Source: Minisyncoccota bacterium
Lineage (GTDB): Bacteria > Patescibacteriota > Microgenomatia > UBA1400 > PJMF01
Direction of reading: 5' to 3'
Length of the DNA stretch: 64,000 bases
NCBI GenBank assembly: GCA_009885085.1
Contig: VFLK01000033.1
Location: 7,135 to 71,134 of the forward strand
Within the stretch, counting starts at the first letter, position 1. Each line of letters starts with the position of its first letter. Below the pieces are notes generated by a model, which had not been told where the DNA came from, did not search any database, and was given only the letters and a program-made list of their open reading frames with translations. Positions 3,128 to 48,057 of the stretch are shown piece after piece. A program made the position numbers and the translations under genes.

Positions 3128-3136
3128 AAGGACCTT

Positions 3137-7639: not shown

Positions 7640-9070
7640 ATGCCTGAAGAAAACAATAAATTGAAATCACAACCAACACTTGAAGAAATTGTAAGTCTAT
7701 CTAAAAGACGCGGATTTGTATTCCAAACATCAGCAATTTATGGTGGACTTGCCAATTCATATGACTACGGGCCACTTGGAGTAGAACTTCTTAGAAATAT
7801 TAAAAACGAGTGGTGGCGAGAATTTATCAACAAACGAGCAGACATGGTGGGAATTGATTCCCAAATCTTGCTTCATCCAAAAACTTGGGTTGCTTCGGGA
7901 CATGTAGGTTCCTTTAGTGATCCTTTAGTCGATGATGTAGTTACCAAAAAACGCTACCGAGCCGATCATTTAATTGAAGAATGGGTTGAACGACAACTCA
8001 AAAAAGGGAAAGAGGAATGGAACGGATTTGTTGTTGAAAATTTAAGTCTTGAAGAAATGGCAAAATTTATTAGTGACAATCAAATCTTGAGTCCTGACGG
8101 AAATAAAATTACTGAACCAAAATCTTTCAATCTTCTTTTTGAAACTGAGATTGGCACCATTGCCGGCGAAAAAACAATCATTTATTTGCGTGGAGAAACC
8201 GCCCAAGGAATATTCACAAATTTTAGTCAAGTTTTAGATTCTACTAGAGTTCAACTACCTTTCGGCATTGGTCAGATAGGGAAAAGCTTTAGAAATGAAA
8301 TTACCACCGGGCAATTTATCTTTAGAACGCTCGAGCTTGAGCAAGCAGAAATTGAATACTTTTTTAATCCAAATAATCAAGATTGGCATGAACTCATGGA
8401 AACTTGGAAACAGCAAATGATGAGTTTTGCAGTAAATACACTGGGTATAAAAACTGAGAATTTAAGATGGCGAAGGCATTCAGATAGCGAAAGAAGTTTT
8501 TATAGCAAAGACACCTATGATTTAGATTACAACTTCTCATTTGGTTGGAAAGAACTTTGGGGAGTTGCCTACAGAACTGACTATGATTTGAAACAACACA
8601 TGGAATTTTCAGGTCAATCACTCGAATATAGAGATCCATTCTCTGGCGAAGTTTTTGTACCACACGTTATGGAACCGGCACTCGGTATTGGCAGAGCTCT
8701 CTTGATGGTATTAACCGATGCTTATTACAAGGATGAAGAAAAAAATCGTATAGTTCTAAAACTTAAGCCATCTTTGGCTCCATATAAAGCCGCAATTTTT
8801 CCATTAGTTAAAAATAAACCAGAAATTGTTTCCCAAGCTCAAGAATTATTTAATTTGCTTGGTCAGAAGTTCTCCTGTACTTGGGATGCAAGAGGAAATA
8901 TTGGCAAAAGATACTTAACTCAAGATGAAATTGGTACTCCATTCTGTATCACAGTTGATTATCAAACTTTAGAAGACAAAACAGTGACTATTAGAGATAG
9001 AGATACTACCGAACAGACTAGAATGCCAATTGAGAAACTTGAAAGCTATATTGAATCCATGATAAAGTAA
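7640..9070 (+). CDS. glyQS: glycyl-tRNA synthetase (class II, dimeric GlyQS type)
   Basis: RRGFVFQTSAIYGGLANSYDYGPLGVELLRNIKNEWW N-terminus is diagnostic of GlyRS. Confidence 0.85.
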   Translation: MPEENNKLKSQPTLEEIVSLSKRRGFVFQTSAIYGGLANSYDYGPLGVELLRNIKNEWWREFINKRADMVGIDSQILLHPKTWVASGHVGSFSDPLVDDVVTKKRYRADHLIEEWVERQLKKGKEEWNGFVVENLSLEEMAKFISDNQILSPDGNKITEPKSFNLLFETEIGTIAGEKTIIYLRGETAQGIFTNFSQVLDSTRVQLPFGIGQIGKSFRNEITTGQFIFRTLELEQAEIEYFFNPNNQDWHELMETWKQQMMSFAVNTLGIKTENLRWRRHSDSERSFYSKDTYDLDYNFSFGWKELWGVAYRTDYDLKQHMEFSGQSLEYRDPFSGEVFVPHVMEPALGIGRALLMVLTDAYYKDEEKNRIVLKLKPSLAPYKAAIFPLVKNKPEIVSQAQELFNLLGQKFSCTWDARGNIGKRYLTQDEIGTPFCITVDYQTLEDKTVTIRDRDTTEQTRMPIEKLESYIESMIK

Positions 9071-9076
9071 GGTTCT

Positions 9077-9889
9077 ATGAAAAATCTGAAAATCCCTAAT
9101 AAAAAAGTTCTTACGATTATTGGTGTGATTTTATTAGTTGTTGGCATAGGATTATTTGTTAAATCTCGATCAAAAGACACTGTTGTCGCTGAGGCTCCAA
9201 AGCTTAAAAAGACTAAAATTACCGAACCATTAAATATTATTGACGTCAGCGAAAGACCATATGTTGTAATTTCGCCAAATACAGATGGCAAAAACATTAC
9301 CGTGGCGGTCAACACTATAAAGAAGGATGCGTCAGCAGTTGATTACGAACTTGAATACCAGGCTGGTTCTTTATTGCAGGGTGTTTTTGGTTCAATTGAT
9401 CTAACTAAACTTCCAGCAAGTACAAAACAGCTTTTGGGCAGTTGCAGCGCCGGTGGTGCCTGTACATATCATGAAGATGTAAAGGGCGGTCACTTAACTA
9501 CTAGATTTAACGGCAAAGAAAATTATGCATTAAAATCTGAGTGGAAATATATTGAAAATAAGACAGGTGAAGATTCTCTGAGTTCTACAGATGCTAAATT
9601 TCAAATTAATTCAAAGGAACTCAAAGCTGCAAAACTAGCGGTTGTTTTTAATACTCCTGGATATCCAGAAAAGCTTGATGGAACTATTAATTCCGATCCT
9701 TATTCATTACAAACCATTCCAGTAGTTTCTGGTAAAGCTACTCTAACCATGAGATCCAAAGAAGAAGGCAAGTTGGTAATCTTAGGCTGGAACGGTACCA
9801 AGTGGACAGAGTTTGCCGGCGAAGTTGATGGTAAATCCATTACAGCTGAAGTAGATTTAATGGAACTTTATGTTGTTGTCAGTAAATAA
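9077..9889 (+). CDS. hypothetical membrane-anchored/secreted protein
   Basis: N-terminal TM or signal-anchor (VLTIIGVILLVVGIGLFV); no family recognised. Confidence 0.4.
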   Translation: MKNLKIPNKKVLTIIGVILLVVGIGLFVKSRSKDTVVAEAPKLKKTKITEPLNIIDVSERPYVVISPNTDGKNITVAVNTIKKDASAVDYELEYQAGSLLQGVFGSIDLTKLPASTKQLLGSCSAGGACTYHEDVKGGHLTTRFNGKENYALKSEWKYIENKTGEDSLSSTDAKFQINSKELKAAKLAVVFNTPGYPEKLDGTINSDPYSLQTIPVVSGKATLTMRSKEEGKLVILGWNGTKWTEFAGEVDGKSITAEVDLMELYVVVSK

Positions 9890-10814: not shown

Positions 10815-11082
10815 AATGTGCGTAAGTATACCTCAAGGATAGAACTTTAACCACTAAAAATATACAGAAATTCGCACAATGATCCTACTTGCTGGACATT
10901 AGTAACTGTGATAATTTAATGAAGCTGTGGAATGTAGTGAAAATCTACAACTGTGCCGCAACGGTGTATTTTGATATTTTTCAAAATAAGTCCGATCTTC
11001 AGCAAATATTTTATTGACGAGCATCAAAATTGTGATTATTTATTTAGCCTTTGTACTAATAAAATAAACACCCGAAAAAATG

Positions 11083-11108: not shown

Positions 11109-11195
11109 CTTCAGTAATCTAGCGGCACAGAATTTCCAGAAGCAAAAGCAATTGAACAGATTGCCTGTAAAAATATATTCTTGGAAAGGAATAGT

Positions 11196-11915
11196 ATGCT
11201 AGAAAAAACTGAATCACTCGATATGTATCACCAGTTTAATGGAGAAAATCCGCTAGGATCTTTCAAAATTGAAGATGTTCTTCAAATAACTGGATTAAAT
11301 ACTTTTCTTGATGAAATGAATGCTTTATTTAAAGAATCAAGTCCTTTTCTCAATCAAGTGTCCCTTTTGTTTACTCACTATAGAAGACAGCTTGCATCCT
11401 TGCGTATTGAGATGCTAAATAATTTAGCCGCAAAACAATTACTTCAAGATTTTGGAGTAGCGGGCATTGGAATAGATGATAAGGGAAATGCTGACTCTCT
11501 GATCACTCAACAAATATTATCAGTCCATGGTAAATTAGTTGTTAATTTAGAAACAACTTCCATAGAACTTCCAAGTTCTGTGGCTAAATTCACCACGTTC
11601 ATTGTCGCTGTTCAAAAAGAAATAATTCGGATTTTAGTAGATTCACAAAAATCTATTTCTGCTGAAATAGAAGCAAAAGAAACTGAAGAAACAAAAGTAG
11701 ATAATCATCTATCTAGTCATACAAATACACACCATCGTTTGGCATCTGAATCGATCCAAGTTTCAAGACAAGCTCAAGAAAAAAGAAAAAAAGCAACACA
11801 TATTGAAAAAGAAAGTGCACACAATCAATTAAAAACTTTATTTTCTTATCTAAAAAACATCTTTAATCCAGTTGCTATGGGAACTCGAGAATTCATGTCA
11901 ATGACTGCGCAATAG
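11196..11915 (+). CDS. hypothetical protein
   Basis: ORF 11181..11915; the second ATG at 11196 has a GGAAAGGA Shine-Dalgarno-like sequence; no family recognised. Confidence 0.45.
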   Translation: MLEKTESLDMYHQFNGENPLGSFKIEDVLQITGLNTFLDEMNALFKESSPFLNQVSLLFTHYRRQLASLRIEMLNNLAAKQLLQDFGVAGIGIDDKGNADSLITQQILSVHGKLVVNLETTSIELPSSVAKFTTFIVAVQKEIIRILVDSQKSISAEIEAKETEETKVDNHLSSHTNTHHRLASESIQVSRQAQEKRKKATHIEKESAHNQLKTLFSYLKNIFNPVAMGTREFMSMTAQ

Positions 11916-19301: not shown

Positions 19302-20417
19302 ATGGATAATTTATATACTAAGCTAAAAGCCGAATTTCCAAATCTAGAATTTAATCAAGAAGTTCTTTTGGCAAATTACACCACTGTAAAAATTGGTGGA
19401 CCAGCCGAAGTATTCTGCGAGACAAAAACGTCCCAAGAATTTGTAAAGTTAGTTGAATTTGCAGTCAAAAATAATATCCCACAGACTGTTCTTGGTTGGG
19501 GAGCAAACACTTTAATTTCCGACGAGGGCATACGAGGACTGGTCATAAAAAACAGCGCCAAAAATATTACTGTTCTTGAAGACGAAATGACACCACCGGC
19601 TGATGAAAAAACTTCCAACGCCGATGATCAAGAGATTGAATCCAGATGGCATTCAAACAAAGACAAAGGCAGCTTTAAATACGAATTTTCCGATCTTGAT
19701 TATGATGAGTCAGAATTTCCTATAGTTTTTGTAGAAATTGATTCGGGAGTTTCACTTCCATTTGCAATAAATTCATTAATAGATCAAGGTATAACAGGCC
19801 TGCAATGGTATTCTAGAATTCCTGCAACTCTTGGTGGCGCCATTTATAATAATGTTCATGGAGGCACTCATTTTATCTCTGAAGTAGTTGAATCAGTGAC
19901 AGTTGTCGACGAAAAAGGCGATCTAAAAGTGATCGGAAAATCGCAACTCAATGCTGGGTATGACGTTTCCAGATTTCACAGCAACAATGAGATTATAATT
20001 TCAATCAAACTCAAGCTTCACCTTGGAGACAAAGAAAAAGCCAAAAATGTCGCTAGAGAATGGGCCACCAGAAAGGCAGTCCAACCACAAAAATCTCTTG
20101 GATGCGTTTTTCAAAATATATCCAATGAACAAAAAGAAGAGCTTAAATTTCCTACAACTAGCGTTGGATACATTGTCGAACATATTTTGAATAAAAAGAA
20201 TTTTCAAGTTGGAGATGCCAAGGTCTCTGACAAGCATGCCGCTTTTATCGAAAATGTAGGTCAAGCAACAGCCAGAGATTATTTAGAAATTATTAAAATA
20301 ATCATTGAAGAAACGAAAAATAAAACAGGTATTACTCTCAAACCTGAAATATTTTTCCTTGGATTTAAAAAGCAAGACTTAGAAGGAATTGTAGATTTAA
20401 GAGGAATTGTAGCTTAA
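19302..20417 (+). CDS. murB: UDP-N-acetylenolpyruvoylglucosamine reductase MurB, with an acidic insertion
   Basis: NYTTVKIGGPAEVF...VLGWGANTLISDEGIRGLVIK FAD-binding N-domain; about 50-aa D/E-rich insert near residues 95-145. Confidence 0.8.
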   Translation: MDNLYTKLKAEFPNLEFNQEVLLANYTTVKIGGPAEVFCETKTSQEFVKLVEFAVKNNIPQTVLGWGANTLISDEGIRGLVIKNSAKNITVLEDEMTPPADEKTSNADDQEIESRWHSNKDKGSFKYEFSDLDYDESEFPIVFVEIDSGVSLPFAINSLIDQGITGLQWYSRIPATLGGAIYNNVHGGTHFISEVVESVTVVDEKGDLKVIGKSQLNAGYDVSRFHSNNEIIISIKLKLHLGDKEKAKNVAREWATRKAVQPQKSLGCVFQNISNEQKEELKFPTTSVGYIVEHILNKKNFQVGDAKVSDKHAAFIENVGQATARDYLEIIKIIIEETKNKTGITLKPEIFFLGFKKQDLEGIVDLRGIVA

Positions 20418-20429
20418 GAAAGATTTGAT

Positions 20430-21746
20430 ATGACTGAATTTCACGTTACTGGAGGAACTCCTCTTCATGGATCAGTTAGAATTGGTGGTGCTAAGAATGC
20501 GTCATATAAATTGATGATAGCTTCTTTGCTCGCCGATACAGAATCAAGATTACTAAATTTCTCAAAAATAAGTGATGTGGAATTGGTTGCAGAAATAATT
20601 TCATATCTAGGAGCAGGTGTAAGTAAGGCAGGAGAAAGAGCAATTTTTATTGATCCAAAAGGTCTAAATTCATTTCAAATAGATAAAAATCATGGTGAGC
20701 AAGGCAGATTCTCAACCATGTTTATTCCAGCACTACTTACAAAATTTGGAGAAGCTAGAGTTCCAGCACCCGGTGGTGACAAAATTGGCGCACGCCCACT
20801 CGATAGACACTTTGAAGGACTTGAGGCTCTTGGCGCAACGGTAACTTTGGAAGATGGAATGTACGTTGCCAAAACTAAAGGCTTGGTCGGCAATACTTAC
20901 AAATTTTCAAAAAATAGCCATACGGGTACCGAAACTTTAATAATGGCAGCGGTCAAGGCAAAAGGAAAAACTATCTTAGAAAACGCTGCTCTAGAACCAG
21001 AGATTGATGACTTGATTTCTTACTTAAATGAAATGGGTGCAAAAGTTACAAGACTACCAAATAGAGTCATCGAAATTGAAGGAGTTGAGAAATTAACTGG
21101 AGCAATCCACAAAATTATCCCCGATAGAAACGAAGCTGTCAGTTATGCTTGCGCTGCGATTGCAACGCAGGGCGATGTCACGATTGAAAATGCTAGACCA
21201 GAACACCTTACAGAATTCTTAAAAAAACTTGACGAAATTGGAGCTGGTTTTGAAGTTGGAAATTATGGAATGAGATTTTATTACAAAGGTCCTCTCAAAG
21301 CCACAAATATTACCACTTCTATCGAGCCTGGCTTTATGACTGATTGGCAACCACTGATGGCAACTGTCCTAACTCAGTGTGAAGGCACAAGTATTCTTCA
21401 TGAAACAATCATGGCAAACAGATTTCAATATGTTGAAGAACTAGCTCAAATGGGGGCAAAAATTGAAAAGTTCAACCCTGAAGTTTCAAATCCAGAAGAA
21501 ACTTATAACTTTGATACTAAAGATGATAAAGAAGAGTACAGGCATGCAATCAAAATTCATGGCAAAACTCCGCTAACTGCTGGAGAATTTGAAGTCAAAG
21601 ACTTAAGACATGGCGCAACTTTAATATTAGCTGCTATGGCTGCAAAAGGAACTACAATTATTAGAAACATTGAACACGTTGATAGAGGATATGAGTCACT
21701 TGACGAAAGATTGAAATCAATGGGTGCAAAGATCGTCAGAAAGTAA
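20430..21746 (+). CDS. murA: UDP-N-acetylglucosamine 1-carboxyvinyltransferase MurA
   Basis: FHVTGGTPLHGSVRIGGAKNASYKLMIASLLA N-terminus. Confidence 0.9.
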   Translation: MTEFHVTGGTPLHGSVRIGGAKNASYKLMIASLLADTESRLLNFSKISDVELVAEIISYLGAGVSKAGERAIFIDPKGLNSFQIDKNHGEQGRFSTMFIPALLTKFGEARVPAPGGDKIGARPLDRHFEGLEALGATVTLEDGMYVAKTKGLVGNTYKFSKNSHTGTETLIMAAVKAKGKTILENAALEPEIDDLISYLNEMGAKVTRLPNRVIEIEGVEKLTGAIHKIIPDRNEAVSYACAAIATQGDVTIENARPEHLTEFLKKLDEIGAGFEVGNYGMRFYYKGPLKATNITTSIEPGFMTDWQPLMATVLTQCEGTSILHETIMANRFQYVEELAQMGAKIEKFNPEVSNPEETYNFDTKDDKEEYRHAIKIHGKTPLTAGEFEVKDLRHGATLILAAMAAKGTTIIRNIEHVDRGYESLDERLKSMGAKIVRK

Positions 21747-28726: not shown

Positions 28727-28777
28727 ATGTTCAAAGTTCATAAGAAAATTACTAGGAAATTACATAAAATAACAATT

Positions 28778-29167
28778 ATGTACAAAAAACTATTAAAACT
28801 TGCCGCATGGAAAAAGATACTTATTGCTGTGGTTTTAGGGCTAATTACATTTGTTGGTTGGTTCGTATACGAAATTACTACTGATGAACCACCTAATTTC
28901 TTTCCCTTAAATGATGTCCAAGCAGAGTATAGAGGAAATAATGTTCAATGGAAAGAAGACCACAGTAATTCTAACTTTTTTAGCATAACAATTGGAAAAA
29001 GTAATATTGACCTGGAATCTTATATAGGTAAAAAAGTCAAAAACCTGTTTGAGCACCTAATAATATGGCGACTCCTACAGGCACTGATATGGAAAGATTG
29101 TCATAAAAGACTAGGCCAGTTCTGGCCAATCCAATTTCTCCTGCAACAACCAAACCAAAACAAGTGA
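28778..29167 (+). CDS. small hypothetical membrane-anchored protein immediately 3' of tRNA-Gly
   Basis: ORF 28727..29167 abuts the tRNA; internal ATG 28778 followed by TM helix ILIAVVLGLITFVGWFVY; no family recognised. Confidence 0.35.
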   Translation: MYKKLLKLAAWKKILIAVVLGLITFVGWFVYEITTDEPPNFFPLNDVQAEYRGNNVQWKEDHSNSNFFSITIGKSNIDLESYIGKKVKNLFEHLIIWRLLQALIWKDCHKRLGQFWPIQFLLQQPNQNK

Positions 29168-29357: not shown

Positions 29358-29517
29358 CAAAAAATGCCAACCTCAATCTAAGTTTTTATCCAACTTCCTC
29401 ACCAATTCCAGCTTTCCAAAATGAGCTGACAAAATATAAAATCTCCAAGGATACTATCCAATATTCACTTTACACATCTTATTTACTTCCAGTCATAAAA
29501 AGTGTAGTTTTAAATAT

Positions 29518-31893
29518 ATGATATTAAATGATGCTAGAAATGTTGACCATCAATGGAATAGAAATTCAACAAAACAAGAAATTCTTGCTTCTGAAAAAGA
29601 TGATGCAGATATTATTGGCAATATATTGGAATTTACAGCAGATACAAAAATATTTTTAGCACACCTACGATATTCAAACGAAGAAGTTCTAAAAAAAATT
29701 GGCATCAAAACAAAAGACCAAATAGATGCTTGGACATCCTTCGTATATTCATCTATAGAATTATTTCACGGCCTAGCTACAAAAGGAAAAGGTGAATGGG
29801 GTATGACTTGGGGTTTAACAGCAAAAGATCCCAAAGATATTGAAAAGCTTCAAAATAAAGTCATAAACAGTATTGTTTATGAAACACTCAGAGATGTACA
29901 GCCTGGAAAAGAAAAACCAGCTATAAAATATGAGTACAAAACTAATAAAGATGGTAGCTTAAAGTCGGTTGAACCACTAGCTGACTCAAGACGTGACCCC
30001 ATTACCTTTCGCGTACTCAGAGGTGGGCCACCCCCACTAGATTTTATAGATATAAACATATCGATGAGTACAATTATTTCCTCAAATGCAAATACTGATA
30101 ACAAAGATATTAATCCGTTGGACATAATTCCCTGGAAAGGAATTATGGATGGCAACGAAAAAATACTTGAAATGCTTAAAACAATAACCGGTATCAAAAT
30201 TGGACCACCAAGATATCTTAAGGACTGGCATGAAGAGCCAGACGACGATGAAAATCATAAAACTGACAGAACAGGAGAATTTTTCAAACCTGATGTTTTG
30301 ATTGGCAAAGGTGATAAAAATTGGCGACTAACAAAATTTGGCAATGACGCAAGAATCATGATGTTGGCTGAGTATGGTGATAAGTTTGGAAGATCTGCTG
30401 CTATTAATGTTTCATTTGCTCAGCATGCCTCTGGAGATGGATTGGAGTTAATGGGCAGCGAATCAGCAAAAAAAGAAGACATGAAATCTGCCTATGACCA
30501 GACTCTTAAAAAACCAGAAATAAGAGAACTTTTAGACGAAAATGGCAAAGCAGAATCAGTCGAGGCACTTGAGTTAATTGGAGAATTTGAACCTCAAGTA
30601 TTGCCTTTCCATACACTCTTGTCTGCTAAATTTGGTCGGTTTGGGTTGGGTGACATGAGACAACAAATTGAGAGAAGAATTGCGGCAACCCAGTTTCAAA
30701 GTAAAGTCATGGCAAAATTTGGAGCAAGAGTTGATGCTATAAGAATACAAGTTGGAATTAAGTTAGACCCTGAGTTGACGGAGGCTTCCAGAAAAACAGT
30801 CAAACAAATCAAGGGAAAAGGTGTTGAAAAAATGAATGGATCTCTTTTAAATGCTATGGCACATCATCTGCATGCGGGCGAATCATGCGGCGTAATGATA
30901 CAACCAATAGAAGGTAGAACAACTCTCGTAACTGTGGGCAATAAGGTTTGGGAAAAATGGGAAAATGTCTGTGATAAATTTTCAAATGATGATCAAATAG
31001 ATAGGTTAAGAGCCTATCCAAGTATGAAAAATGGCATAAAAGTTATTAGGGATAGATTAAAAAACCTTCAATGGCTTCCAGATAGCAACGAACTTGATGA
31101 CTCAGAAACAAGCATGTGGCTAAATGAAAATATTCCAATAATAAAAAATATATTTTCTTTTGACAATGAACTTAGAAATCAGATTGAGCCGATCAGAAAT
31201 TCTGTAACAAACAGTGTAAATGAAATAACTGATGTTGATTCATTTTTAAAGAAAGTAAGAAATAAAAGCGGCGGTGTAGTCACAAATAAAAATGCCGAGT
31301 GGGACCTGAGTAGCATGACAAACAAAATGAACTTAATTATTACAAAAGCAAAAATGAATCCTAATACTCCTTTTTCAAAACTTATAATCCAAATTGATGA
31401 GACATTTAAAAATAGCAGTCAAAATGAATATCAAACAGAAGAATTTAGTAATAAAATTAAATCTCTAAACATCGCTGGAAAATTTTATCCGCTTAGAACT
31501 TTTTCACTAAATGTAAACCATGATCCAACAAGATCAAAAATAAATACAATTTTTCTTGCATGTGACCAACAAAAACTAGATGGTTTTGACTGGATACTTT
31601 CGGACACCGAACACAATGAAGAAGGATTTATCAAATCATTTGAAGCTGAGTTTGAAGACACTGCTAGTAGTATGGGAAACGTAGGTGATTTCTTTATTGA
31701 AGCTGGCAAAGACCCAAACCTAACTGCTCCTGCAATAAGTAGAGATTTGGGATTTCTAGCAGTCGTAGAAGGATGGGCAGTAAATCACACACCTAACACT
31801 GCTGCTGCAGCAAGGTCACAAATTTTTCGATCAGGGTTGCTTGAACCAGCAGACTCTGTTGGAACCGCCGTAGTCTTTCAAACAGCAACCTAA
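29518..31893 (+). CDS. large hypothetical protein (791 aa), first gene of the tRNA-Gly-adjacent operon; no TM, no P-loop, no recognisable domain
   Basis: long uninterrupted ORF; HHLHAGESCG His/Cys cluster; ends at a single TAA that is in frame with the next ORF. Confidence 0.6.
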   Translation: MILNDARNVDHQWNRNSTKQEILASEKDDADIIGNILEFTADTKIFLAHLRYSNEEVLKKIGIKTKDQIDAWTSFVYSSIELFHGLATKGKGEWGMTWGLTAKDPKDIEKLQNKVINSIVYETLRDVQPGKEKPAIKYEYKTNKDGSLKSVEPLADSRRDPITFRVLRGGPPPLDFIDINISMSTIISSNANTDNKDINPLDIIPWKGIMDGNEKILEMLKTITGIKIGPPRYLKDWHEEPDDDENHKTDRTGEFFKPDVLIGKGDKNWRLTKFGNDARIMMLAEYGDKFGRSAAINVSFAQHASGDGLELMGSESAKKEDMKSAYDQTLKKPEIRELLDENGKAESVEALELIGEFEPQVLPFHTLLSAKFGRFGLGDMRQQIERRIAATQFQSKVMAKFGARVDAIRIQVGIKLDPELTEASRKTVKQIKGKGVEKMNGSLLNAMAHHLHAGESCGVMIQPIEGRTTLVTVGNKVWEKWENVCDKFSNDDQIDRLRAYPSMKNGIKVIRDRLKNLQWLPDSNELDDSETSMWLNENIPIIKNIFSFDNELRNQIEPIRNSVTNSVNEITDVDSFLKKVRNKSGGVVTNKNAEWDLSSMTNKMNLIITKAKMNPNTPFSKLIIQIDETFKNSSQNEYQTEEFSNKIKSLNIAGKFYPLRTFSLNVNHDPTRSKINTIFLACDQQKLDGFDWILSDTEHNEEGFIKSFEAEFEDTASSMGNVGDFFIEAGKDPNLTAPAISRDLGFLAVVEGWAVNHTPNTAAAARSQIFRSGLLEPADSVGTAVVFQTAT

Positions 31894-31899
31894 GCTGGA

Positions 31900-32613
31900 G
31901 TGCCAGGACTTGGTGCAATGGGAAACAGCATGGCCATCGCTGACACCAGAGAAACATCTGGACTCAAGGAATCACTTGATCATCCTGCAAAAATGATGGA
32001 TGTATTATTGCCATGGTTGAGAGGAAATGAAAATGTAAAAACTGCTTTTAAAAATTTTCTTGGAGTAAACTTAGACATAGGTAACGAAAAAACAAAAGAA
32101 GAAAAGAATAATCGCAAAAAATTATCACTCTTTCAAAAAATGCTTTCTGAAGATGATTTTGCCTGTTTTAACGACAATAACTCAGAAAAAATTGTTAGAA
32201 GAAATGATTTAAGAATCTGGGGACCAAAAAGAGATGAAGAAAAAAGATTAACAGCTAGTGATTTAAGCGTCAGATATAAACATCATCTAGAGGGAGAACT
32301 TTTATTTGATATGTGGAATCAATTTATAGATGCAGTTGATCAAAATAAAGTAAAAATTGATGATAGAACAAAAGAATCTATCAAAAAATTTAACGGAACG
32401 GGTTTTAAAGAAATGTGGGGAGCAATGATAAAGTTTAGAGCTTTAGACATGCAACATCAAACCGCAAAAGCAAATCTGATCATGAGACTGTGGTTAAATC
32501 CCCATGATCACGATGAGTCTTCGTGGGAAATTTATGTAAGACAATTTAACACTGCAAGAGAATCCTATCGAAACATGGAAAAGGTATTTTCAGTTTTTGG
32601 GAAAGAATACTAA
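31900..32613 (+). CDS. hypothetical protein (237 aa), in the same frame as the upstream ORF and separated from it by one TAA plus two codons; possible C-terminal extension or split gene
   Basis: GTG 31900 (or ATG 31918) start; no convincing spaced SD; frame identity with 29518..31893 computed from coordinates. Confidence 0.5.
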   Translation: MPGLGAMGNSMAIADTRETSGLKESLDHPAKMMDVLLPWLRGNENVKTAFKNFLGVNLDIGNEKTKEEKNNRKKLSLFQKMLSEDDFACFNDNNSEKIVRRNDLRIWGPKRDEEKRLTASDLSVRYKHHLEGELLFDMWNQFIDAVDQNKVKIDDRTKESIKKFNGTGFKEMWGAMIKFRALDMQHQTAKANLIMRLWLNPHDHDESSWEIYVRQFNTARESYRNMEKVFSVFGKEY

Positions 32614-32615
32614 TC

Positions 32616-34739
32616 ATGATTTACGAACCTGATGGCTCATTATCTAACCTAACACTTCCAAGAGATGAAGTGTTAATTGCAATCTATGAAAAACAGAATG
32701 AAGCTTTATTCCTAATTCTTGGAGCTGACAAACCACCAATATTCACTAAAGAATTTGCCGCCAAAGAGTTAGCAATTCAACCACAAGAAACTCCAGGATT
32801 ACTAAAAAGAATTTGGTTTGAAAAGGATGAAAAAAATAAGACGTATAAATTGTGCGGTGTAGGGAAGTGGGGAGGTCAAAATTCAAAACTTGCAGAAATA
32901 TCTATAAATCTTGATATGGAAGAAGCAAATCGACTAATGAGTCTAGCTTCTAATAATAGAATTGAAGAGATAAACTCCTTATCAAATAATTCTGAATTAG
33001 CAAAAACCCCAAAAATTGAAAATTACAGAAAAATGCTAGAAGAAGCTGAAAAAATATTTTTTGCAATGCTAACAGATTATTCTGGAAAAATTGTAGTTGA
33101 TGAAACTGAAAGTGAAAAAAGTAAAAAAAGCTCTGAAGTAAAAAAGGATACGGCGCCTTTAGACACAATTGATGTTCAAATCATGCCAACTGAGAAAACT
33201 GATAAAAAAGATCTACTAAACAAATTAGCTGAAACTATGGAGCTTCGGGTGTTATTTTTAAATAGAAATAACAACGAAATTTCTTACGCTGATATATCCG
33301 AAGTTATAAAATTATTAGTAAATCCAGAAAATGTTGAAAAATATTTTAATAATTTAGGAATTGGCTCAGATGTCATTAGTGAAAAGGAACATTTTGAAAA
33401 TGAACTAAAAAAAATGACGAATGAGTATGCCAGCGGAAAAGTTAAAAACTTGCAAACAATTTTGGAAACAAGAAAACAAAATCAGCTCCAAACAATTTCG
33501 CAGATGATTAATACAATTGTTGAACAAATACCAATGCTTGCTAAAAGTCCAAAAACTTTTGACATTATAAAAAATGCTATGGATCTTGATAATGACTTAG
33601 CCGAGCAACTTGTCAAAGAATATAACGAAACTTCCACAATATCATTTGAAACTGTTTTCGATAATCTCGAAGGTGCAACTGAGTTATTTGAAGCAAAAGT
33701 ATTAGAAATAATTCTAGCAGATTATGAGGATCAAATTAATTCGCTAAAAATTGAATTTAATAAAATAATAGCTTCGCAGACAATCTCAAGGTGTATTGAG
33801 TGGGCCCAACCTCCTTTTTCTACTCCAGTTGATTCAAATATTCAACTCAACGTAGATCCTACTTTATTAGATCAAGCAATTAAATTTTCGTTTAGTCCAG
33901 AAAAGTGGGATATTAATTTAGTTACTTATGCACTAAATAACACTAGACATTCAGATGGCGAAATTGGAAGTAAAATACCAGGCAATAATATTTCAGGACT
34001 ACGAAAAACTAGAGAGAAATTAGATGACTATTTAAAACAGATGGTTGAAAAAAGTAATACGGAAAGTTTTGGTGCTCAATTTAAAGCCTGGATGAAAAAA
34101 TACAGCGATGGAAATATTAACCCAGATTATTACTTATTAAGTTTTACCTCGGTTTTAAAAACACCTTGGAAAAAACTTGAAGAAGAAATCTGGAAAAAAA
34201 CAATGGCCGAGTGGTTAAAATCAAATAAAGAAAAACTAAAAGCCATTGTTACTAACGAACTTAGTAAAAAAGGTGGCGCAATAGATGAAATCAAAAGTCA
34301 TGATAAAGCGATAGCAAAATCAACTGAAATATGGTTTAAATGGCGTCATGAATTGAAAAAAATATTACAAGAAAAATCACTAAATGCTCAAACGGATGTT
34401 GATATTCTAGTTGACTGGTCGCTAAAACAACAATACCCTGACGATAGAATGAAAACAAAAACAAATGAAGTTGCAATTGATTGGGATAAGGACAAAGAAC
34501 TGATAGAAAAACTTAAAGTTGATCATCTAAGAATTTGGAATATAATTTTTCACACCAGAAATATTGCCAAAAGTCTCAACTTAGGTATAGACACAAATGT
34601 TGTTCAATGGCTAAAAAGAATTTCTTTTCAAGCAAAAATGAGCAATCATTATGGATCAGATACTTTTCTCACAAGCGAAGGTGTGGAGTGGAGAGAAAAT
34701 ATTGAGGCCAAAGCCAAAGAAACAACTTCACAAAAATGA
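32616..34739 (+). CDS. large hypothetical protein (707 aa), K/E-rich and probably mostly alpha-helical, no TM or P-loop
   Basis: starts 2 nt after the upstream stop; stop overlaps the next start (ATGA). Confidence 0.6.
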   Translation: MIYEPDGSLSNLTLPRDEVLIAIYEKQNEALFLILGADKPPIFTKEFAAKELAIQPQETPGLLKRIWFEKDEKNKTYKLCGVGKWGGQNSKLAEISINLDMEEANRLMSLASNNRIEEINSLSNNSELAKTPKIENYRKMLEEAEKIFFAMLTDYSGKIVVDETESEKSKKSSEVKKDTAPLDTIDVQIMPTEKTDKKDLLNKLAETMELRVLFLNRNNNEISYADISEVIKLLVNPENVEKYFNNLGIGSDVISEKEHFENELKKMTNEYASGKVKNLQTILETRKQNQLQTISQMINTIVEQIPMLAKSPKTFDIIKNAMDLDNDLAEQLVKEYNETSTISFETVFDNLEGATELFEAKVLEIILADYEDQINSLKIEFNKIIASQTISRCIEWAQPPFSTPVDSNIQLNVDPTLLDQAIKFSFSPEKWDINLVTYALNNTRHSDGEIGSKIPGNNISGLRKTREKLDDYLKQMVEKSNTESFGAQFKAWMKKYSDGNINPDYYLLSFTSVLKTPWKKLEEEIWKKTMAEWLKSNKEKLKAIVTNELSKKGGAIDEIKSHDKAIAKSTEIWFKWRHELKKILQEKSLNAQTDVDILVDWSLKQQYPDDRMKTKTNEVAIDWDKDKELIEKLKVDHLRIWNIIFHTRNIAKSLNLGIDTNVVQWLKRISFQAKMSNHYGSDTFLTSEGVEWRENIEAKAKETTSQK

Positions 34740-37207
34740 TAAGTCGAGAAACAAGCAAACCACAATCCCGCAACGATTTTCTATCGATTCCTGGTCTTGA
34801 TGAAAGAGCACAAGCAACAATTTTTGCCAAAGAAATAGAATTATTGCCTCCAAGAATGCGAAATTATATTGCTATTTTGATGCGAGAAAATAGCAGAGCT
34901 GGCATATTTAAAAAAAGACAATCTGAAGAAAATCTTACAGCACTACTTGAGCCAGCTAGAGAACTGATTAGTTTGTTACATATAACTGAAAATATGCCAG
35001 AGGTTGTGGAAAACCTCCATATCAGGTGGGCAAAAATTATTGAAACTCAACCATATAATGAAAAAACAAGACGAAGAGATATAAGAGAAATATGGTTAGA
35101 TATAATTGAAAAAGGTGTTAAAACCGCGCAAACAACATTTATCTGCAGAGAAATTAGAGACCGAATGATCTCCAGAAGCTATCTCGATAAACCCAGTCAG
35201 GCAATTTCCAAATTTGATACAGAAATACTAAATAAATTAGCTGCCTGGTGCTATGAAGCCCAAGGAGATAAATATAAAGTTGAAAATGGTTACCAGCTAT
35301 TTAAAGAAGATTTGGGAAAAATACTAGAAATTTCACAAGATACTGGCATATCGGCAGAAAATTATTTTAATCACAGAGACAAATCCATAATGCCATGGTT
35401 TTTTATGCTGTTGGTTGGTGATAATTCTGAATTTAGTAAATTCATGTATGAAAAAATAGGCAATAAAGAATCAATGAGACCACACATAAACCTTGGAGTG
35501 ACAGGTATTGATATAGCATTAGGCGAGAATGGACTTGAAGAAAGACCAGACGATCTTTACAAACGTCTTGCTGATCTTTTATATCCTGACGGCTATCCAG
35601 AAGGAATTAAAGGAAAAATTAAAAATTCAGAACAAAGAAGTATTTTTATTGAGAAAGGCAGCGAACTTAAGTGTAAAGTAGCAGACCCAGGTTCAGACTC
35701 ATATGAAAGAGCTTATATCAAAAAGGAAATTGAAATCCTAAAAACTGATTTCCAAGATGATGGCATAGAAATGCACGACAATTTTGGCTATGAAAAACCA
35801 GCTCTTTTTATGTCCTTAGATATTAATTTAATGTCTGATCTCATGGGAATAACTGGTAGCTGGACCAAGTGGCTTGAAGCAATGGCCCATATTAGAGAAC
35901 AAGAAACAACTTGCAACATACCAATTTCTCCAGATGAAGCATTAACTTTGATGAACTGGGATTTAGAGTCTGATTTAAAAAATAAAATCCTCACAAAAGC
36001 AATGCTGATTGCTCATTTCAATAGAGCTGCTGGCTTAGAACAACATCACGGCTATGGAGGAAATAAAAATATTTATAATGATCAATTTTGGGCTAGACTA
36101 GCTTACAATTTATCATTGCCAGAAAATAAAGATGGAGCTCACACTTTGACTCCAGAAATATTAGCTAAAATTTCAGAATCTTCTCAGGACGAAGAAGAAA
36201 TGGCGCAAAAACTTGGATTCTTACTCTCTGGCAGAGTTACTACAATTAATCTCAGTGTGATGGGTGCAAATAGAACTGGAAAAGATGAACAAGCAAGTAC
36301 GATGGAAAGTTCTTCGTATGCAGTCACAGAATCTTGCAGAGCTTATGGCCTTTATGAGCAAGGAAAAGATCCTAAGCCAACAGTTGCTTCTGGACATTCC
36401 ATGGGTGCTCAAATTTTAGAAAGAGCTTTGTTACTTTTGCCTCAAAGTGTAAGAAATTGGGTTGACTTTCTTTCCGTAACTGGAGTCTATACAAGTGAAA
36501 TGAGTGCAATGTCTTTTCTTAAAAAAGGAATGAATAAACTTCACCCATTATTAATTAAACTTGTAACAAATAAGAACATTACTAAACAACAGTTGGGGAA
36601 ATTTATGTCAGGCGCTGGAGAAATCTTACCAATTAAAAAAATAATACTAAAAGGCGCCACCTATTCTCAAGCCAGAACACCAATGGATTTCAAGATTGGA
36701 TTACCAATTGCAGCGGCGCATGAAATAAGTTTGAATTCAGCTCCAGAATATTTATTAGGACAAATGGGAGCAATTGATAACAGCAAAGATAGACATTCAT
36801 TTGATGAACTTGCGTCAACAATATCTACATTTGGTAAAGACATGGTAACAAGAACGGTTGGACGAATTGATTCTGTCCTACATCCTGGAAAATCAATGAG
36901 GGCTCTAAAAAATTCAGACAAAAATATTAGAATAAAAGATTTTGATAAAATGACTATTCCTGAAATGGTTAAGTGGGTAAATGAGACTGAAGTGAATACT
37001 GGTGAACCAATTGAAGTTATCCTGGCTAAAGTTCCACACTACATACAAACGACTGAACTAGGTAGATGGTTGATTAGATTGCAACACATGAAAAAACTAA
37101 AATTACATACTTATGGATATAGAAAAAAAGGTGAAAATTCAGAAGCAACTCAAAATATCAGCAATACAACAAGATCAATTACCGAATTATTTATGGGGAG
37201 AAATTAA
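34736..37207 (+). CDS. large hypothetical protein (823 aa) with a GHSMG (GxSxG nucleophile-elbow-like) motif; candidate serine hydrolase or acyltransferase domain
   Basis: ATGA overlap with the upstream gene; GHSMG encoded at 36392..36406 in frame. Confidence 0.55.
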   Translation: MISRETSKPQSRNDFLSIPGLDERAQATIFAKEIELLPPRMRNYIAILMRENSRAGIFKKRQSEENLTALLEPARELISLLHITENMPEVVENLHIRWAKIIETQPYNEKTRRRDIREIWLDIIEKGVKTAQTTFICREIRDRMISRSYLDKPSQAISKFDTEILNKLAAWCYEAQGDKYKVENGYQLFKEDLGKILEISQDTGISAENYFNHRDKSIMPWFFMLLVGDNSEFSKFMYEKIGNKESMRPHINLGVTGIDIALGENGLEERPDDLYKRLADLLYPDGYPEGIKGKIKNSEQRSIFIEKGSELKCKVADPGSDSYERAYIKKEIEILKTDFQDDGIEMHDNFGYEKPALFMSLDINLMSDLMGITGSWTKWLEAMAHIREQETTCNIPISPDEALTLMNWDLESDLKNKILTKAMLIAHFNRAAGLEQHHGYGGNKNIYNDQFWARLAYNLSLPENKDGAHTLTPEILAKISESSQDEEEMAQKLGFLLSGRVTTINLSVMGANRTGKDEQASTMESSSYAVTESCRAYGLYEQGKDPKPTVASGHSMGAQILERALLLLPQSVRNWVDFLSVTGVYTSEMSAMSFLKKGMNKLHPLLIKLVTNKNITKQQLGKFMSGAGEILPIKKIILKGATYSQARTPMDFKIGLPIAAAHEISLNSAPEYLLGQMGAIDNSKDRHSFDELASTISTFGKDMVTRTVGRIDSVLHPGKSMRALKNSDKNIRIKDFDKMTIPEMVKWVNETEVNTGEPIEVILAKVPHYIQTTELGRWLIRLQHMKKLKLHTYGYRKKGENSEATQNISNTTRSITELFMGRN

Positions 37208-46017: not shown

Positions 46018-47238
46018 ATGGGATATACAAAAAATACTGTATCTGGATTTAGTTGGCAAACCATTCTAAAAGCTCTTACCGCTGTAATTACACTTGCTAA
46101 AATCATGGTGATTGCCAGAATTTTAAGTCCACAAGACTTTGGACTCTTTTCTTTGATCGCTATCGCCCTAGGACTTGCTGAATCAACGACACAAACAGGC
46201 GTCAATATTACTATTTTACAATCAAAAAGATCAATTGGATATTTTATTGATACCGCCTGGGTAATTGCAATTACAAGAGGTCTAATTATCGGAATCATCA
46301 TGGTATTAATGGGTTTTGGAATGAGTAATTACTATGATGAACCGAGACTTAGAATTCTTATTTCAATAGCAGCATTGATTCCAATTGTAAAAGGCTTTAT
46401 TAACCCTAGCATTATTTCCTTACATAAAAATTTAGAGTTTTTAAAAGATAGCGCCTACAAATTATCCTTATTAGCAGTGGAAGCAGTATTTGCTGTCATC
46501 TTTGCCGTAATCTTCAAAGATGTAATCGCATTAATATTTTCCATGCTGGCAGCAGGAATATTTGAAGTACTAATATCATTCTTGCTCTTCAAAGAAAAAC
46601 CAAGATTTGAGTTCATTCCCAGCAGAGCCAAAGTAATCTTTTCGAATACCAAAGGCCTAAGTATCTCGGCAGCGCTTTCATATTTGAATGAAAATATAGA
46701 TGACTTTCTATTAGGAAAAATTGTTGGTACTCATGATCTTGGACTGTATCATAATGCCTATAGTTTGGGTCACAAAGCTAATTATGAGTTTGCAAAATCA
46801 ATTAATCACAGCACTCTACCAATTTTTTCCAAAATTGCAGACGATAAAGAAAGGTTAAAAAGAGCCTTTTTCAGATCTATGGCAGTCACAATTATAATTG
46901 TGACTGGAATATCTCTTCCACTTTTCATTGCTCCAGAATTCATAGTTAATTTAATCTTGGGAGAAAAATGGCTTCAGATAGTTCCAAATTTATATCTTTT
47001 TGTCATTGCTGGAATTCTTCAAAGTATCTCAATAATTTTTTACACAGTTTTTTATGCAAAAAAGAGATATACAGCATTAAATATCCACCTTGCTTTTACG
47101 TTATTAATTCTAGTAGCAATGATACAAATTCTAAGCAAACATAGCGGTATTATGGGAGCTGGACAAGCTCTAGTAATAAGTAGAGCAGTAACCTTGCCTT
47201 TACTTATCTACGAAACTATAAAAATATTTAGAAAATAA
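46018..47238 (+). CDS. polysaccharide biosynthesis protein / oligosaccharide flippase (Wzx-like, MOP superfamily)
   Basis: 406 aa, about 12 hydrophobic segments, typical flippase architecture. Confidence 0.55.
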   Translation: MGYTKNTVSGFSWQTILKALTAVITLAKIMVIARILSPQDFGLFSLIAIALGLAESTTQTGVNITILQSKRSIGYFIDTAWVIAITRGLIIGIIMVLMGFGMSNYYDEPRLRILISIAALIPIVKGFINPSIISLHKNLEFLKDSAYKLSLLAVEAVFAVIFAVIFKDVIALIFSMLAAGIFEVLISFLLFKEKPRFEFIPSRAKVIFSNTKGLSISAALSYLNENIDDFLLGKIVGTHDLGLYHNAYSLGHKANYEFAKSINHSTLPIFSKIADDKERLKRAFFRSMAVTIIIVTGISLPLFIAPEFIVNLILGEKWLQIVPNLYLFVIAGILQSISIIFYTVFYAKKRYTALNIHLAFTLLILVAMIQILSKHSGIMGAGQALVISRAVTLPLLIYETIKIFRK

Positions 47239-47241
47239 CAA

Positions 47242-48057
47242 ATGGATAAAATAATTTCACTCACAATTGTAATTATTACCCACAGAAATGACGCTAGATT
47301 TATTTCTACTTTAAAATCTGCACAAATTGCTCAAAATATAATAGTCGTGGACAACAAGAGTAATAATGATTGGGAAAAATTAAAAAGAGATTTTAATTTT
47401 GAATTAATTTCACGTGAAAAAGAGATTTCAAATTTTGCAAAAGCTAGGAATGAAGTCTTAAAAGTTGTTCAAACAGAGTGGGTATTTTTTCTTGATAGCG
47501 ATGAAACTCTGGGCGCCTCAACTGCGATCATTCAATCCAATCATGACAAAATTTCAAACATTATCAACCAAAACTTATTTGATGGTGTATCTATTATAAG
47601 AAGAGATATTTTTCTGGGCAAAGAGCTTATGTTTGGTGAAGCTGGAAATACGATCATTATAAGAATGTTTAAAGTAAAAAATGGTAAGTTCAAAAGAAAT
47701 GTTCATGAAATTGCTCAAATAAATGGAAGGTTAGGAGGATCAGAAATAATTGTTTCACACTTTTCACACACTGATATATCTGAATTCATGAGTTCTATTG
47801 CCACATATTCTCAAATGGCTTCTCTAAATGAACTAGTCAGCAAAGAAAATAATAAAGAAGGCAAGGTAGTCAACATACTAAAAATGATCTTTTTTCCACC
47901 GCTCAAATTTCTTCAAAATTATTTTTTAAAACTTGGATTTCTAGACGGATACAGAGGTCTAGTTTATGCAACTATAATGAGTTTACATTCATTATTTGTA
48001 AGAGTTTTTTATTTTGAAAACAATAATGTGGAAATTAATAATGAACCCAAGGCTTAG
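47242..48057 (+). CDS. glycosyltransferase family 2
   Basis: ISLTIVIITHRND...VVDNKSNND and D-x-D-like FLDSDE motif. Confidence 0.6.
   Translation: MDKIISLTIVIITHRNDARFISTLKSAQIAQNIIVVDNKSNNDWEKLKRDFNFELISREKEISNFAKARNEVLKVVQTEWVFFLDSDETLGASTAIIQSNHDKISNIINQNLFDGVSIIRRDIFLGKELMFGEAGNTIIIRMFKVKNGKFKRNVHEIAQINGRLGGSEIIVSHFSHTDISEFMSSIATYSQMASLNELVSKENNKEGKVVNILKMIFFPPLKFLQNYFLKLGFLDGYRGLVYATIMSLHSLFVRVFYFENNNVEINNEPKA

What the first reader, a model, noticed from the sequence alone, without database searches (positions are those of the whole stretch)
31885..31920. Genes 1 and 2 of the operon share a reading frame and are separated by a single TAA
29518..31893 and 31900..32613 are in the same frame (31900-29518 = 2382 = 3x794). 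The TAA at 31891..31893 is followed by GCT GGA and then GTG. The only SD-like GGAG (31897..31900) overlaps the GTG, and the next ATG (31918) is 17 nt beyond it, so independent initiation of gene 2 is poorly supported. Options are: (a) a recent nonsense mutation splitting one roughly 1030-aa protein (incipient pseudogene); (b) programmed stop-codon readthrough giving long and short isoforms; (c) a sequencing or assembly error.
Basis: seen in the sequence. Interest (0 to 1): 0.6.

Follow-up and report, generated by a model that had tools for sequence, protein, structure and literature searches.

The report
One conserved gene cut by TAA
The two adjacent in-frame ORFs are the two halves of one ~1031-residue gene of unknown function, intact in every relative found and interrupted here by a single stop codon; this is an ordinary young gene split, or a sequence error, and not a special decoding mechanism.

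Summary
ORF 29518..31893 ends at TAA 31891..31893, and the same frame continues (GCT GGA GTG...) to 32613.

The geometry alone is not unusual: four other neighbouring pairs in the window, murB/murA among them, are in frame with gaps of 3-12 nt.

What makes this a true split is homology. The syntenic orthologue in a Candidatus Woesebacteria MAG is 84% identical at the protein level. It is one ungapped 1031-codon ORF with TCT (Ser) where the window has TAA. Nine distant homologues (845-1109 aa) also run through the junction.

The stop lies in a lineage-specific loop that the model predicts with low confidence.

The 3' half shows no decay: dN/dS is 0.10 against 0.13 for the 5' half, with no further stops or indels. 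So the stop is young, an artefact, or the 3' half is still made.

Restart is plausible. GTG lies 6 nt after the stop, and AGGA lies 9 nt before the conserved ATG 31918. Most genes in the window lack an SD motif anyway.

Programmed readthrough has no support. TAA is the main genuine stop here, the stop is not conserved, and no RNA structure follows it.

Reads are needed to separate mutation from error. Interest is low.

The parts
29518..31893 (+). 5' fragment of the split gene (791 codons plus the premature TAA). It corresponds to residues 1-791 of the 1031-aa orthologue P0001.
   Evidence: 84% protein identity and an ungapped alignment to L001 5470-8565. dN/dS is 0.133.
30424..30441 (+). Codons 303-308, H-A-S-G-D-G. 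This is an HxxxDG-like motif. H303 and G308 are nearly invariant in the family. It is a lead for a CAT-like acyltransferase active site.
31891..31893 (+). In-frame TAA that interrupts the gene. It aligns with TCT (Ser792) in the orthologue.
   Evidence: The position falls in a 7-8-residue insertion specific to this clade, adjoining a low-confidence loop of the model (residues 793-800, pLDDT<50).
31894..32613 (+). 3' fragment: 239 sense codons plus the natural TAA. It is homologous to residues 793-1031 of the orthologue and to the C-terminal domain of all distant homologues.
   Evidence: tblastn of this part alone hits the 3' ends of the single genes in L003, L006/L007 and L004/L005 (E 9e-24, 1e-18, 1.5e-12). 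dN/dS is 0.101 with no extra stops or indels.
31900..31902 (+). GTG, the candidate restart codon 6 nt after the stop. The orthologue has GTA (not a start codon) at this position.
   Evidence: GTG makes up only 12% of Val codons in the window.
31905..31908 (+). AGGA, an SD-like tetramer 9 nt upstream of ATG 31918. The orthologue has CCT GGT here where the window has CCA GGA (synonymous differences).
   Evidence: Only 1.3% of random internal codon positions in the window's genes have a start codon within 10 codons that is preceded by such a motif.
31918..31920 (+). ATG, the start of the publicly recorded 231-aa gene call for the 3' fragment. It encodes a Met that is conserved in the orthologue (Met801).
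   Evidence: P0015 is in the collection, on the same 80,635-nt contig as P0002..
32616..34739 (+). Next gene of the operon (707 aa, no known family). Its start lies 2 nt after the stop of the 3' fragment. It is conserved and syntenic in the relative.
   Evidence: 77% identity to L001 8568-10718.
34736..37207 (+). Last gene of the operon (823 aa, no known family). It has an ATGA overlap with the preceding gene. It is conserved and syntenic in the relative.
   Evidence: 84% identity to L001 10715-13213.

Best explanation
A single ancestral gene of about 1031 codons has been interrupted by a nonsense substitution. The gene belongs to a CPR (Woesebacteria-type) family of unknown function and is first in a conserved three-gene operon downstream of ftsZ. 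A Ser codon (TCT in the relative, probably via TCA) has become TAA.

Shown:
- The fused state is ancestral.
- The stop sits in a lineage-specific loop between two conserved blocks.
- The 3' half has not decayed.

Inferred:
- Ribosomes terminate at the TAA and release a 791-aa N-terminal product that keeps the conserved HxxxDG-like motif.
- The 3' half, if made at all, is made as a separate polypeptide of 231-237 aa. This would happen by termination-reinitiation at GTG 31900 (6 nt after the stop), or by initiation at ATG 31918 (AGGA 9 nt upstream). The piece would then have to re-associate with the N-terminal product.
- The event is evolutionarily young. If the 3' half were dead, the stop must have arisen within roughly the last fifth of this lineage's divergence from its nearest known relative.

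Whether the split is tolerated (a functional fission) or the first step of gene loss is not decided by the data.
For: - Closest relative: P0001 is 1031 aa, 84% identical, with 100% coverage of the conceptually fused query.
- Synteny: the same ftsA-ftsZ-...-gene-716aa-832aa-aaRS-rodA order appears in L001, and independently in a Logan assembly, L002.
- The two loci are collinear at about 80% nt identity, and the gene aligns ungapped, 3096 nt against 3096 nt.
- The junction codon is TCT in both L001 and L002, against TAA in the window.
- An exhaustive HMMER search gave 13 hits. The eight other full-length hits assigned to the family are 946-1109 aa. They and the N-terminally shorter P0007 (845 aa) all align across the junction, with conserved blocks on both sides: F787 and A790, then P823.
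- Contigs for four of these distant homologues each show one gene.
- Gene 2 alone matches their 3' ends.
- dN/dS is 0.133 for the 5' part and 0.101 for the 3' part.
- Under neutrality over the whole branch, about 13-16 extra stops would be expected in the 3' part; none is seen. This bounds any neutral period to about 20% of the branch or less.
- The stop codon adjoins a low-confidence loop of the model (residues 793-800, pLDDT<50), between strands 783-788 and 805-809. A well-predicted helical bundle (823-1028) follows.
- Restart signals are present, and the public gene call starts at ATG 31918.
- SD-less initiation is normal in this genome.
- Termination-reinitiation works at very short distances and falls off by about 20-40 nt (PMC10666635).
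Against: - No reads or second assembly of this organism were available. The 791-aa product is on record from one contig only. No further close relative exists in the collections searched.
- A consensus error or a minority allele would look identical, and would also explain the absence of decay.
- The restart-signal argument is post hoc. It rests on two or three synonymous differences in a genome where CCA and GGA are in any case the preferred codons.
- The stop separates strands of what the model shows as one small sheet, so the two pieces may not be able to function apart.
Confidence: 0.6

Rival explanations
1. Artefact or non-representative allele. The organism's real gene is intact. The TAA would come from a base-calling, polishing or consensus error in the metagenome-assembled contig, or from a minority nonsense allele that the assembler happened to pick.
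For: - Perfect colinearity and identical length with the intact orthologue.
- No relaxation of constraint downstream.
- A single base change from TCA, GAA, CAA, AAA, TAT/TAC or TTA would suffice.
- The product is known from one contig only, with no independent assembly.
- No other gene in the roughly 18 kb shared with L001 is disrupted. So it is an isolated event, not part of a general decay.
Against: - Substitution errors that survive into a consensus are rare compared with indel errors.
- The neighbouring synonymous differences that create GTG and AGGA would be coincidence, at the order of a 1% chance (post hoc).
- There is no direct evidence of error.
Confidence: 0.3
2. Programmed stop-codon readthrough, or suppression of the TAA, giving a 791-aa short form and a 1031-aa long form.
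For: Only the in-frame geometry and the intact downstream frame.
Against: - The stop is absent from the only close relative and from all distant homologues. It is therefore not a conserved decoding feature.
- TAA is the principal genuine terminator in the window: 32 of 46 long ORFs, and TAAG ends 7 of them, including gene 4 of this operon.
- From established knowledge, both RF1 and RF2 read UAA, and it is the least leaky stop in bacteria.
- There is no stable or unusual RNA structure around or after the stop (z = -0.46).
- The only tRNAs in the window are Gly-CCC, Thr-CGT and Asp-GTC; none is a suppressor.
Confidence: 0.03
3. A genuine, long-standing two-gene arrangement, either ancestral or an old established fission, with the relative's single gene being a secondary fusion.
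For: - The short in-frame gap resembles other true gene pairs in the window, such as murB/murA.
- A start codon lies 6 nt after the stop.
Against: - All ten other homologues that span the junction are single ORFs. They come from independent NCBI, ENA and Logan assemblies, and most share only 20-30% identity with this gene.
- In the closest relative the restart codon is GTA, which is not a start codon.
- The segment between the stop and ATG 31918 (AGVPGLGA) is identical at the protein level between the two lineages while five of its eight codons differ synonymously. It has therefore been evolving as coding sequence.
Confidence: 0.03

Closest known systems
Genes interrupted by an internal stop (nonsense-split genes or young pseudogenes, as flagged 'internal stop' by annotation pipelines)
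   Same: Two collinear ORFs share one frame and together cover one full-length homologue residue for residue. A single sense-to-stop difference separates them from the orthologue.
   Different: No secondary decay is seen: dN/dS is 0.10 and there are no further stops or indels. Plausible restart signals sit directly after the stop. So loss of function is not shown, and the public record calls both pieces as ordinary genes.
Natural gene fissions expressed by translational coupling (termination-reinitiation at very short stop-start distances; Huber et al. 2023, PMC10666635)
   Same: The stop-to-GTG distance is 6 nt. The downstream genes of the same operon are also tightly packed (2-nt gap, ATGA overlap). 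The break is in a loop between conserved blocks.
   Different: No relative conserves the two-cistron state. The distance is not the typical -4/-1 overlap. Expression and assembly of the two pieces are untested.
Programmed stop-codon readthrough (for example phage Q-beta A1 protein at UGA; recalled from general knowledge)
   Same: An in-frame stop is followed by an open, conserved coding frame.
   Different: The codon here is TAA, not a leaky UGA or UAG. It is not conserved in relatives and has no stimulatory structure. TAA is used as the normal terminator throughout the window.
CAT-like CoA-dependent acyltransferase fold (carnitine/choline acyltransferases, 2-oxoacid dehydrogenase E2 cores, NRPS condensation domains, PapA5, WS/DGAT). 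This concerns the protein family, not the split.
   Different: There is no sequence-profile match to any Pfam, NCBIfam or PDB family. All Foldseek E-values are above 0.001. The motif's Asp is not conserved. The protein is twice the size, with a long helical insertion and a C-terminal helical bundle.

Membership tests
Nonsense-split gene (one gene cut by an internal stop) | Both ORFs are collinear, in one frame, and together cover a single full-length orthologue. | tested here: met
   Ungapped 1031-codon correspondence to P0001/L001 at 84% identity.
Nonsense-split gene (one gene cut by an internal stop) | The uninterrupted state is ancestral. | tested here: met
   Nine distant homologues of 845-1109 aa span the junction. 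Single genes are seen on independent contigs.
Nonsense-split gene (one gene cut by an internal stop) | The stop is real in the organism (read support). | not testable with these tools
   No reads are available. There is only one contig on record, and no conspecific sequence in the collections.
Pseudogene (loss of function) | Relaxed constraint or further lesions downstream of the stop. | tested here: not met
   dN/dS of the 3' part is 0.101 against 0.133 for the 5' part. There are no extra stops, where about 13-16 would be expected under whole-branch neutrality, and no indels. This is compatible only with a very young lesion.
Programmed stop-codon readthrough | The stop codon is conserved at the same position in relatives. 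| tested here: not met
   TCT (Ser) in L001 and L002; sense residues or a gap in all distant homologues.
Programmed stop-codon readthrough | A leaky stop or context, or a stimulatory downstream RNA structure. | tested here: not met
   TAA-G is used as a normal terminator 7 times in the window. The fold z-score is -0.46.
Programmed stop-codon readthrough | A read-through protein product is detected. | not testable with these tools
   This needs proteomics, ribosome profiling or a reporter assay.
Translationally coupled cistron pair (termination-reinitiation) | A start codon overlapping the upstream stop or within a few nt of it. | tested here: met
   GTG 31900 lies 6 nt after TAA 31893. The distance dependence comes from PMC10666635.
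Translationally coupled cistron pair (termination-reinitiation) | The two-cistron arrangement is conserved in related genomes. | tested here: not met
   The relative has a single ORF, with GTA at the would-be start.
CAT-like CoA-dependent acyltransferase superfamily (protein family of the split gene) | Significant match to a sequence profile of the superfamily. | tested here: not met
   No Pfam, NCBIfam or PDB-sequence hit.
CAT-like CoA-dependent acyltransferase superfamily (protein family of the split gene) | CAT-type fold. | tested here: inconclusive
   [not shown]
CAT-like CoA-dependent acyltransferase superfamily (protein family of the split gene) | Catalytic HxxxD(G) motif. | tested here: inconclusive
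   H303 and G308 are nearly invariant. The D position varies (D/V/N/I) among homologues.

The most novel reading that the evidence does not exclude
The most novel reading not strictly excluded is that the TAA is decoded at some frequency, by near-cognate readthrough or by a suppressor tRNA encoded elsewhere in this CPR genome. One locus would then yield both a 791-aa and a 1031-aa isoform.

A milder and likelier novel reading has a probability of about 0.3. It is a functional gene fission caught shortly after it happened, with synonymous changes (GTA to GTG; CCT GGT to CCA GGA) recruited as restart signals.
Probability: 0.03. Interest if true: 0.65.

Novelty: already known. Interest (0 to 1): 0.2.

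Why it matters
In practice this is an annotation issue. The 791-aa and 231-aa 'hypothetical proteins' of this record should be treated as two pieces of one gene, and the stop should be checked against reads.

Biologically it is at most a small example of how a gene can be cut in a surface loop and possibly remain expressed through restart.

The more interesting by-product is the gene family itself. It is a CPR-restricted protein of about 1000 aa with no sequence-family assignment. It always heads a tightly packed operon, and its predicted fold and HxxxDG-like motif point to a CAT-type acyltransferase or condensation enzyme.

Tried and rejected
- Pfam, NCBIfam, PADLOC and PDB-sequence searches of all operon proteins gave nothing above threshold. 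The BrxC/BrxD hit of gene 2 (E 0.002, 17 bits against a cut-off of 22) was dismissed as chance.
- The search for homologous proteins with the family alignment and with gene 2 alone returned only already known sequences. One search did not even return P0001, so these negatives say nothing.
- The search for related loci with the two-sequence alignment found no relatives in genome contigs or metagenome contigs.
- A degenerate DNA pattern spanning the junction found nothing in either collection. No conspecific or congeneric sequence is therefore available to date or verify the stop.
- The look-up of encoding contigs could not find the window's own contig.
- The two short family hits are uninformative. 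P0010 (362 aa) ends at a TGA on a 1.4x-coverage 1.4-kb contig. P0013 (418 aa) ends at a TAA 11 nt before the end of a 1.65-kb contig.
- Frameshifting and hopping were considered and rejected, because the conserved protein sequence is in frame 0 on both sides of the stop.
- Reassignment of TAA was rejected, because TAA ends most conserved genes in the window.
- The afdb50 fold library was unavailable.
Full report
**1. Observation**

The sequence is as described. ORF 29518..31893 (ATG, 791 aa) ends at TAA 31891..31893. It is followed by GCT GGA GTG (GTG at 31900), and the same frame stays open to 32613. GGAG (31897..31900) overlaps the GTG, and the next ATG is at 31918.

Two points need correcting:
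- An AGGA at 31905..31908 lies 9 nt before ATG 31918, and the public gene call for the second ORF starts at that ATG (231 aa, P0015).
- In-frame neighbours with tiny gaps are common in this compact window: 1901-3127/3137, 7640-9070/9077, murB/murA at 19302-20417/20430, and 46018-47238/47242.

So the geometry by itself is not beyond chance.

**2. Context**

The window carries a complete division and cell-wall cluster: mraZ, rsmH..., murB, murA, mraY, ftsW, murG, ftsQ, ftsA, ftsZ. Then come tRNA-Gly and a small ORF. Next is a tightly packed set of large ORFs without any family assignment (791, 237, 707 and 823 aa, with gaps of 6, 2 and -4 nt). These are followed by a class-I aminoacyl-tRNA synthetase and rodA.

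G+C is 35%. TAA ends 32 of 46 long ORFs. About two thirds of genes, including genes 1, 3 and 4 of this set, lack any SD-like tetramer upstream.

**3. Orthologues**

A search with the conceptually fused 1031-aa sequence found P0001. This is a 1031-aa hypothetical protein of a Candidatus Woesebacteria MAG, 84% identical over 100% of the query. The search also found the window's own 791-aa product.

P0001's locus (L001, GCA_018000035.1) and an independent Logan assembly (L002) have the same gene order. They carry one gene where the window has two.

The loci are collinear at about 80% nt identity. The gene aligns without a single gap, 3096 nt against 3096 nt.

At the stop position both relatives have TCT (Ser). 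At the window's GTG they have GTA. At the window's CCA GGA they have CCT GGT.

An exhaustive HMMER search of 1.8 billion representatives found only 13 family members. Eight further full-length members are 946-1109 aa. These eight and the N-terminally shorter P0007 (845 aa), aligned, all run through the junction. Conserved blocks lie on both sides: F-x-T-A before it, K-E-S-x-D-x-P...L-P-x-L-R after it.

Contigs retrieved for four of them, from ENA and Logan, each show a single gene followed by an overlapping downstream gene. The window's second ORF alone matches the 3' ends of those single genes (E 9e-24 to 1.5e-12).

The fused state is therefore ancestral, and the window's state is derived.

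**4. Anatomy of the break**

The stop codon falls on the first residue of a 7-8-residue insertion (SAGVPGLG) that only the window and P0001 clade possess.

An AlphaFold model of P0001 has mean pLDDT 71 and pTM 0.73. In it, residues 793-800 form a low-confidence loop between strands 783-788 and 805-809. A confidently predicted helical bundle (823-1028) follows.

The cut is thus in a loop, but it separates strands that the model places in one small sheet.

**5. Has the 3' half decayed?**

It has not. By the Nei-Gojobori method:

| Part | dN/dS | dS |
|---|---|---|
| 5' part | 0.133 | 0.67 |
| 3' part | 0.101 | 0.80 |

If the 3' part had been neutral for the whole branch, about 13-16 new in-frame stops would be expected; none is seen. 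Together with the dN bound, this limits any neutral period to roughly the last 20% of the branch or less.

The eight codons between the stop and ATG 31918 encode the same residues in both lineages, although five of them differ synonymously.

So one of three things holds: the stop is very young, it is not real, or the 3' half is still translated and selected.

**6. Can the 3' half be made?**

GTG 31900 is 6 nt from the stop. Experiments in E. coli and Haloferax show that termination-reinitiation works at overlaps or very short distances and is nearly lost by about 20-40 nt (PMC10666635).

ATG 31918 has AGGA at a workable spacing.

At random internal positions of this window's genes:
- An in-frame start codon within three codons occurs 12% of the time.
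- A start within ten codons preceded by an SD-like tetramer occurs 1.3% of the time.

GTG makes up only 12% of Val codons. This hints at tolerated or selected restart. However, the argument is post hoc, and CCA and GGA are the preferred codons anyway.

**7. Readthrough**

Nothing supports it:
- The stop is not conserved.
- TAA, including TAAG, is the standard terminator here.
- There is no unusual RNA structure (z = -0.46).
- There is no suppressor tRNA in the window.

Frameshifting is irrelevant, because the conserved sequence is in frame 0 on both sides.

**8. Real or artefact?**

This cannot be decided here. The 791-aa and 231-aa products are on record from one 80.6-kb contig only. The contig itself could not be retrieved. 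No conspecific or further congeneric sequence exists in the genome or metagenome collections.

No other gene in the roughly 18 kb shared with L001 is disrupted.

My probabilities:

| Reading | Probability |
|---|---|
| Real nonsense substitution (about evenly divided between 'both halves still expressed' and 'first step of loss') | ~0.6 |
| Error or minority allele | ~0.3 |
| Readthrough | ~0.03 |
| Old genuine two-gene arrangement | ~0.03 |

**9. What the gene may be (side result)**

The family has no Pfam, NCBIfam, PADLOC or PDB-sequence match.

The alignment has a nearly invariant His and Gly in an HxxxDG-like motif: window codons 303-308, at 30424..30441.

This is a lead, not a family assignment. 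The motif lies in the 5' fragment.

**10. Verdict**

This is an ordinary phenomenon, one gene cut by one stop codon. It has low novelty, and the practical consequence is to check the reads and to annotate the two ORFs as parts of one gene.

Noticed in passing
[not shown]
   Followed up: partly
L004 1591-7279; L006 621-6503; L008 658-8304: In distant relatives the family gene is a single ORF preceded by a Peptidase_M16 gene. It is followed by an overlapping 445-665-aa gene of unknown function. In the window and in L001 it instead sits between ftsZ and an aminoacyl-tRNA synthetase and heads a 3-gene set.
   Followed up: partly
window 34736..37207: The last gene of the operon (823 aa, no family hit) contains 'SGHSMGAQ'. 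This is a GxSxG nucleophile-elbow-like motif typical of alpha/beta hydrolases. There is no Pfam or PDB-sequence support.
   Followed up: no
window 10911..11009: An AdoCbl-II (cobalamin) riboswitch aptamer (41.7 bits, above the gathering score) lies upstream of a 244-aa TTG-start ORF (11181..11915) that has no Pfam family, just before mraZ and rsmH.
   Followed up: partly
window 28727..29167 vs L001 5045..5401: The slot between ftsZ/tRNA-Gly and the operon holds a 146-aa ORF with no family in the window, but a 118-aa DUF1801 gene in the relative. Nucleotide similarity is lost here apart from an 89-nt stretch (window 29382..29470).
   Followed up: no
window 1901..3137, 7640..9077, 19302..20430, 46018..47242: Four other neighbouring gene pairs are in the same frame and separated by only 3-12 nt, including murB/murA. 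The 'single stop between in-frame ORFs' pattern is therefore common in this genome and is not a signal on its own.
   Followed up: yes
window-wide (46 long ORFs): Only about a third of genes have an SD-like tetramer within 25 nt of the start. Stop usage is TAA 32, TAG 10, TGA 4. The listed first-start ORFs for ftsZ (GTG 27088) and ftsA (TTG 25729) are 15 and 7 residues longer than the relative's gene calls, so their true starts are probably further downstream.
   Followed up: partly
L009 1379..1381; L010 1638..1640: Two short family fragments (362 and 418 aa) end at stop codons a few nt before the ends of very small, low-coverage contigs. They could be errors, other splits, or, for the TGA, an alternative genetic code.
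   Followed up: partly
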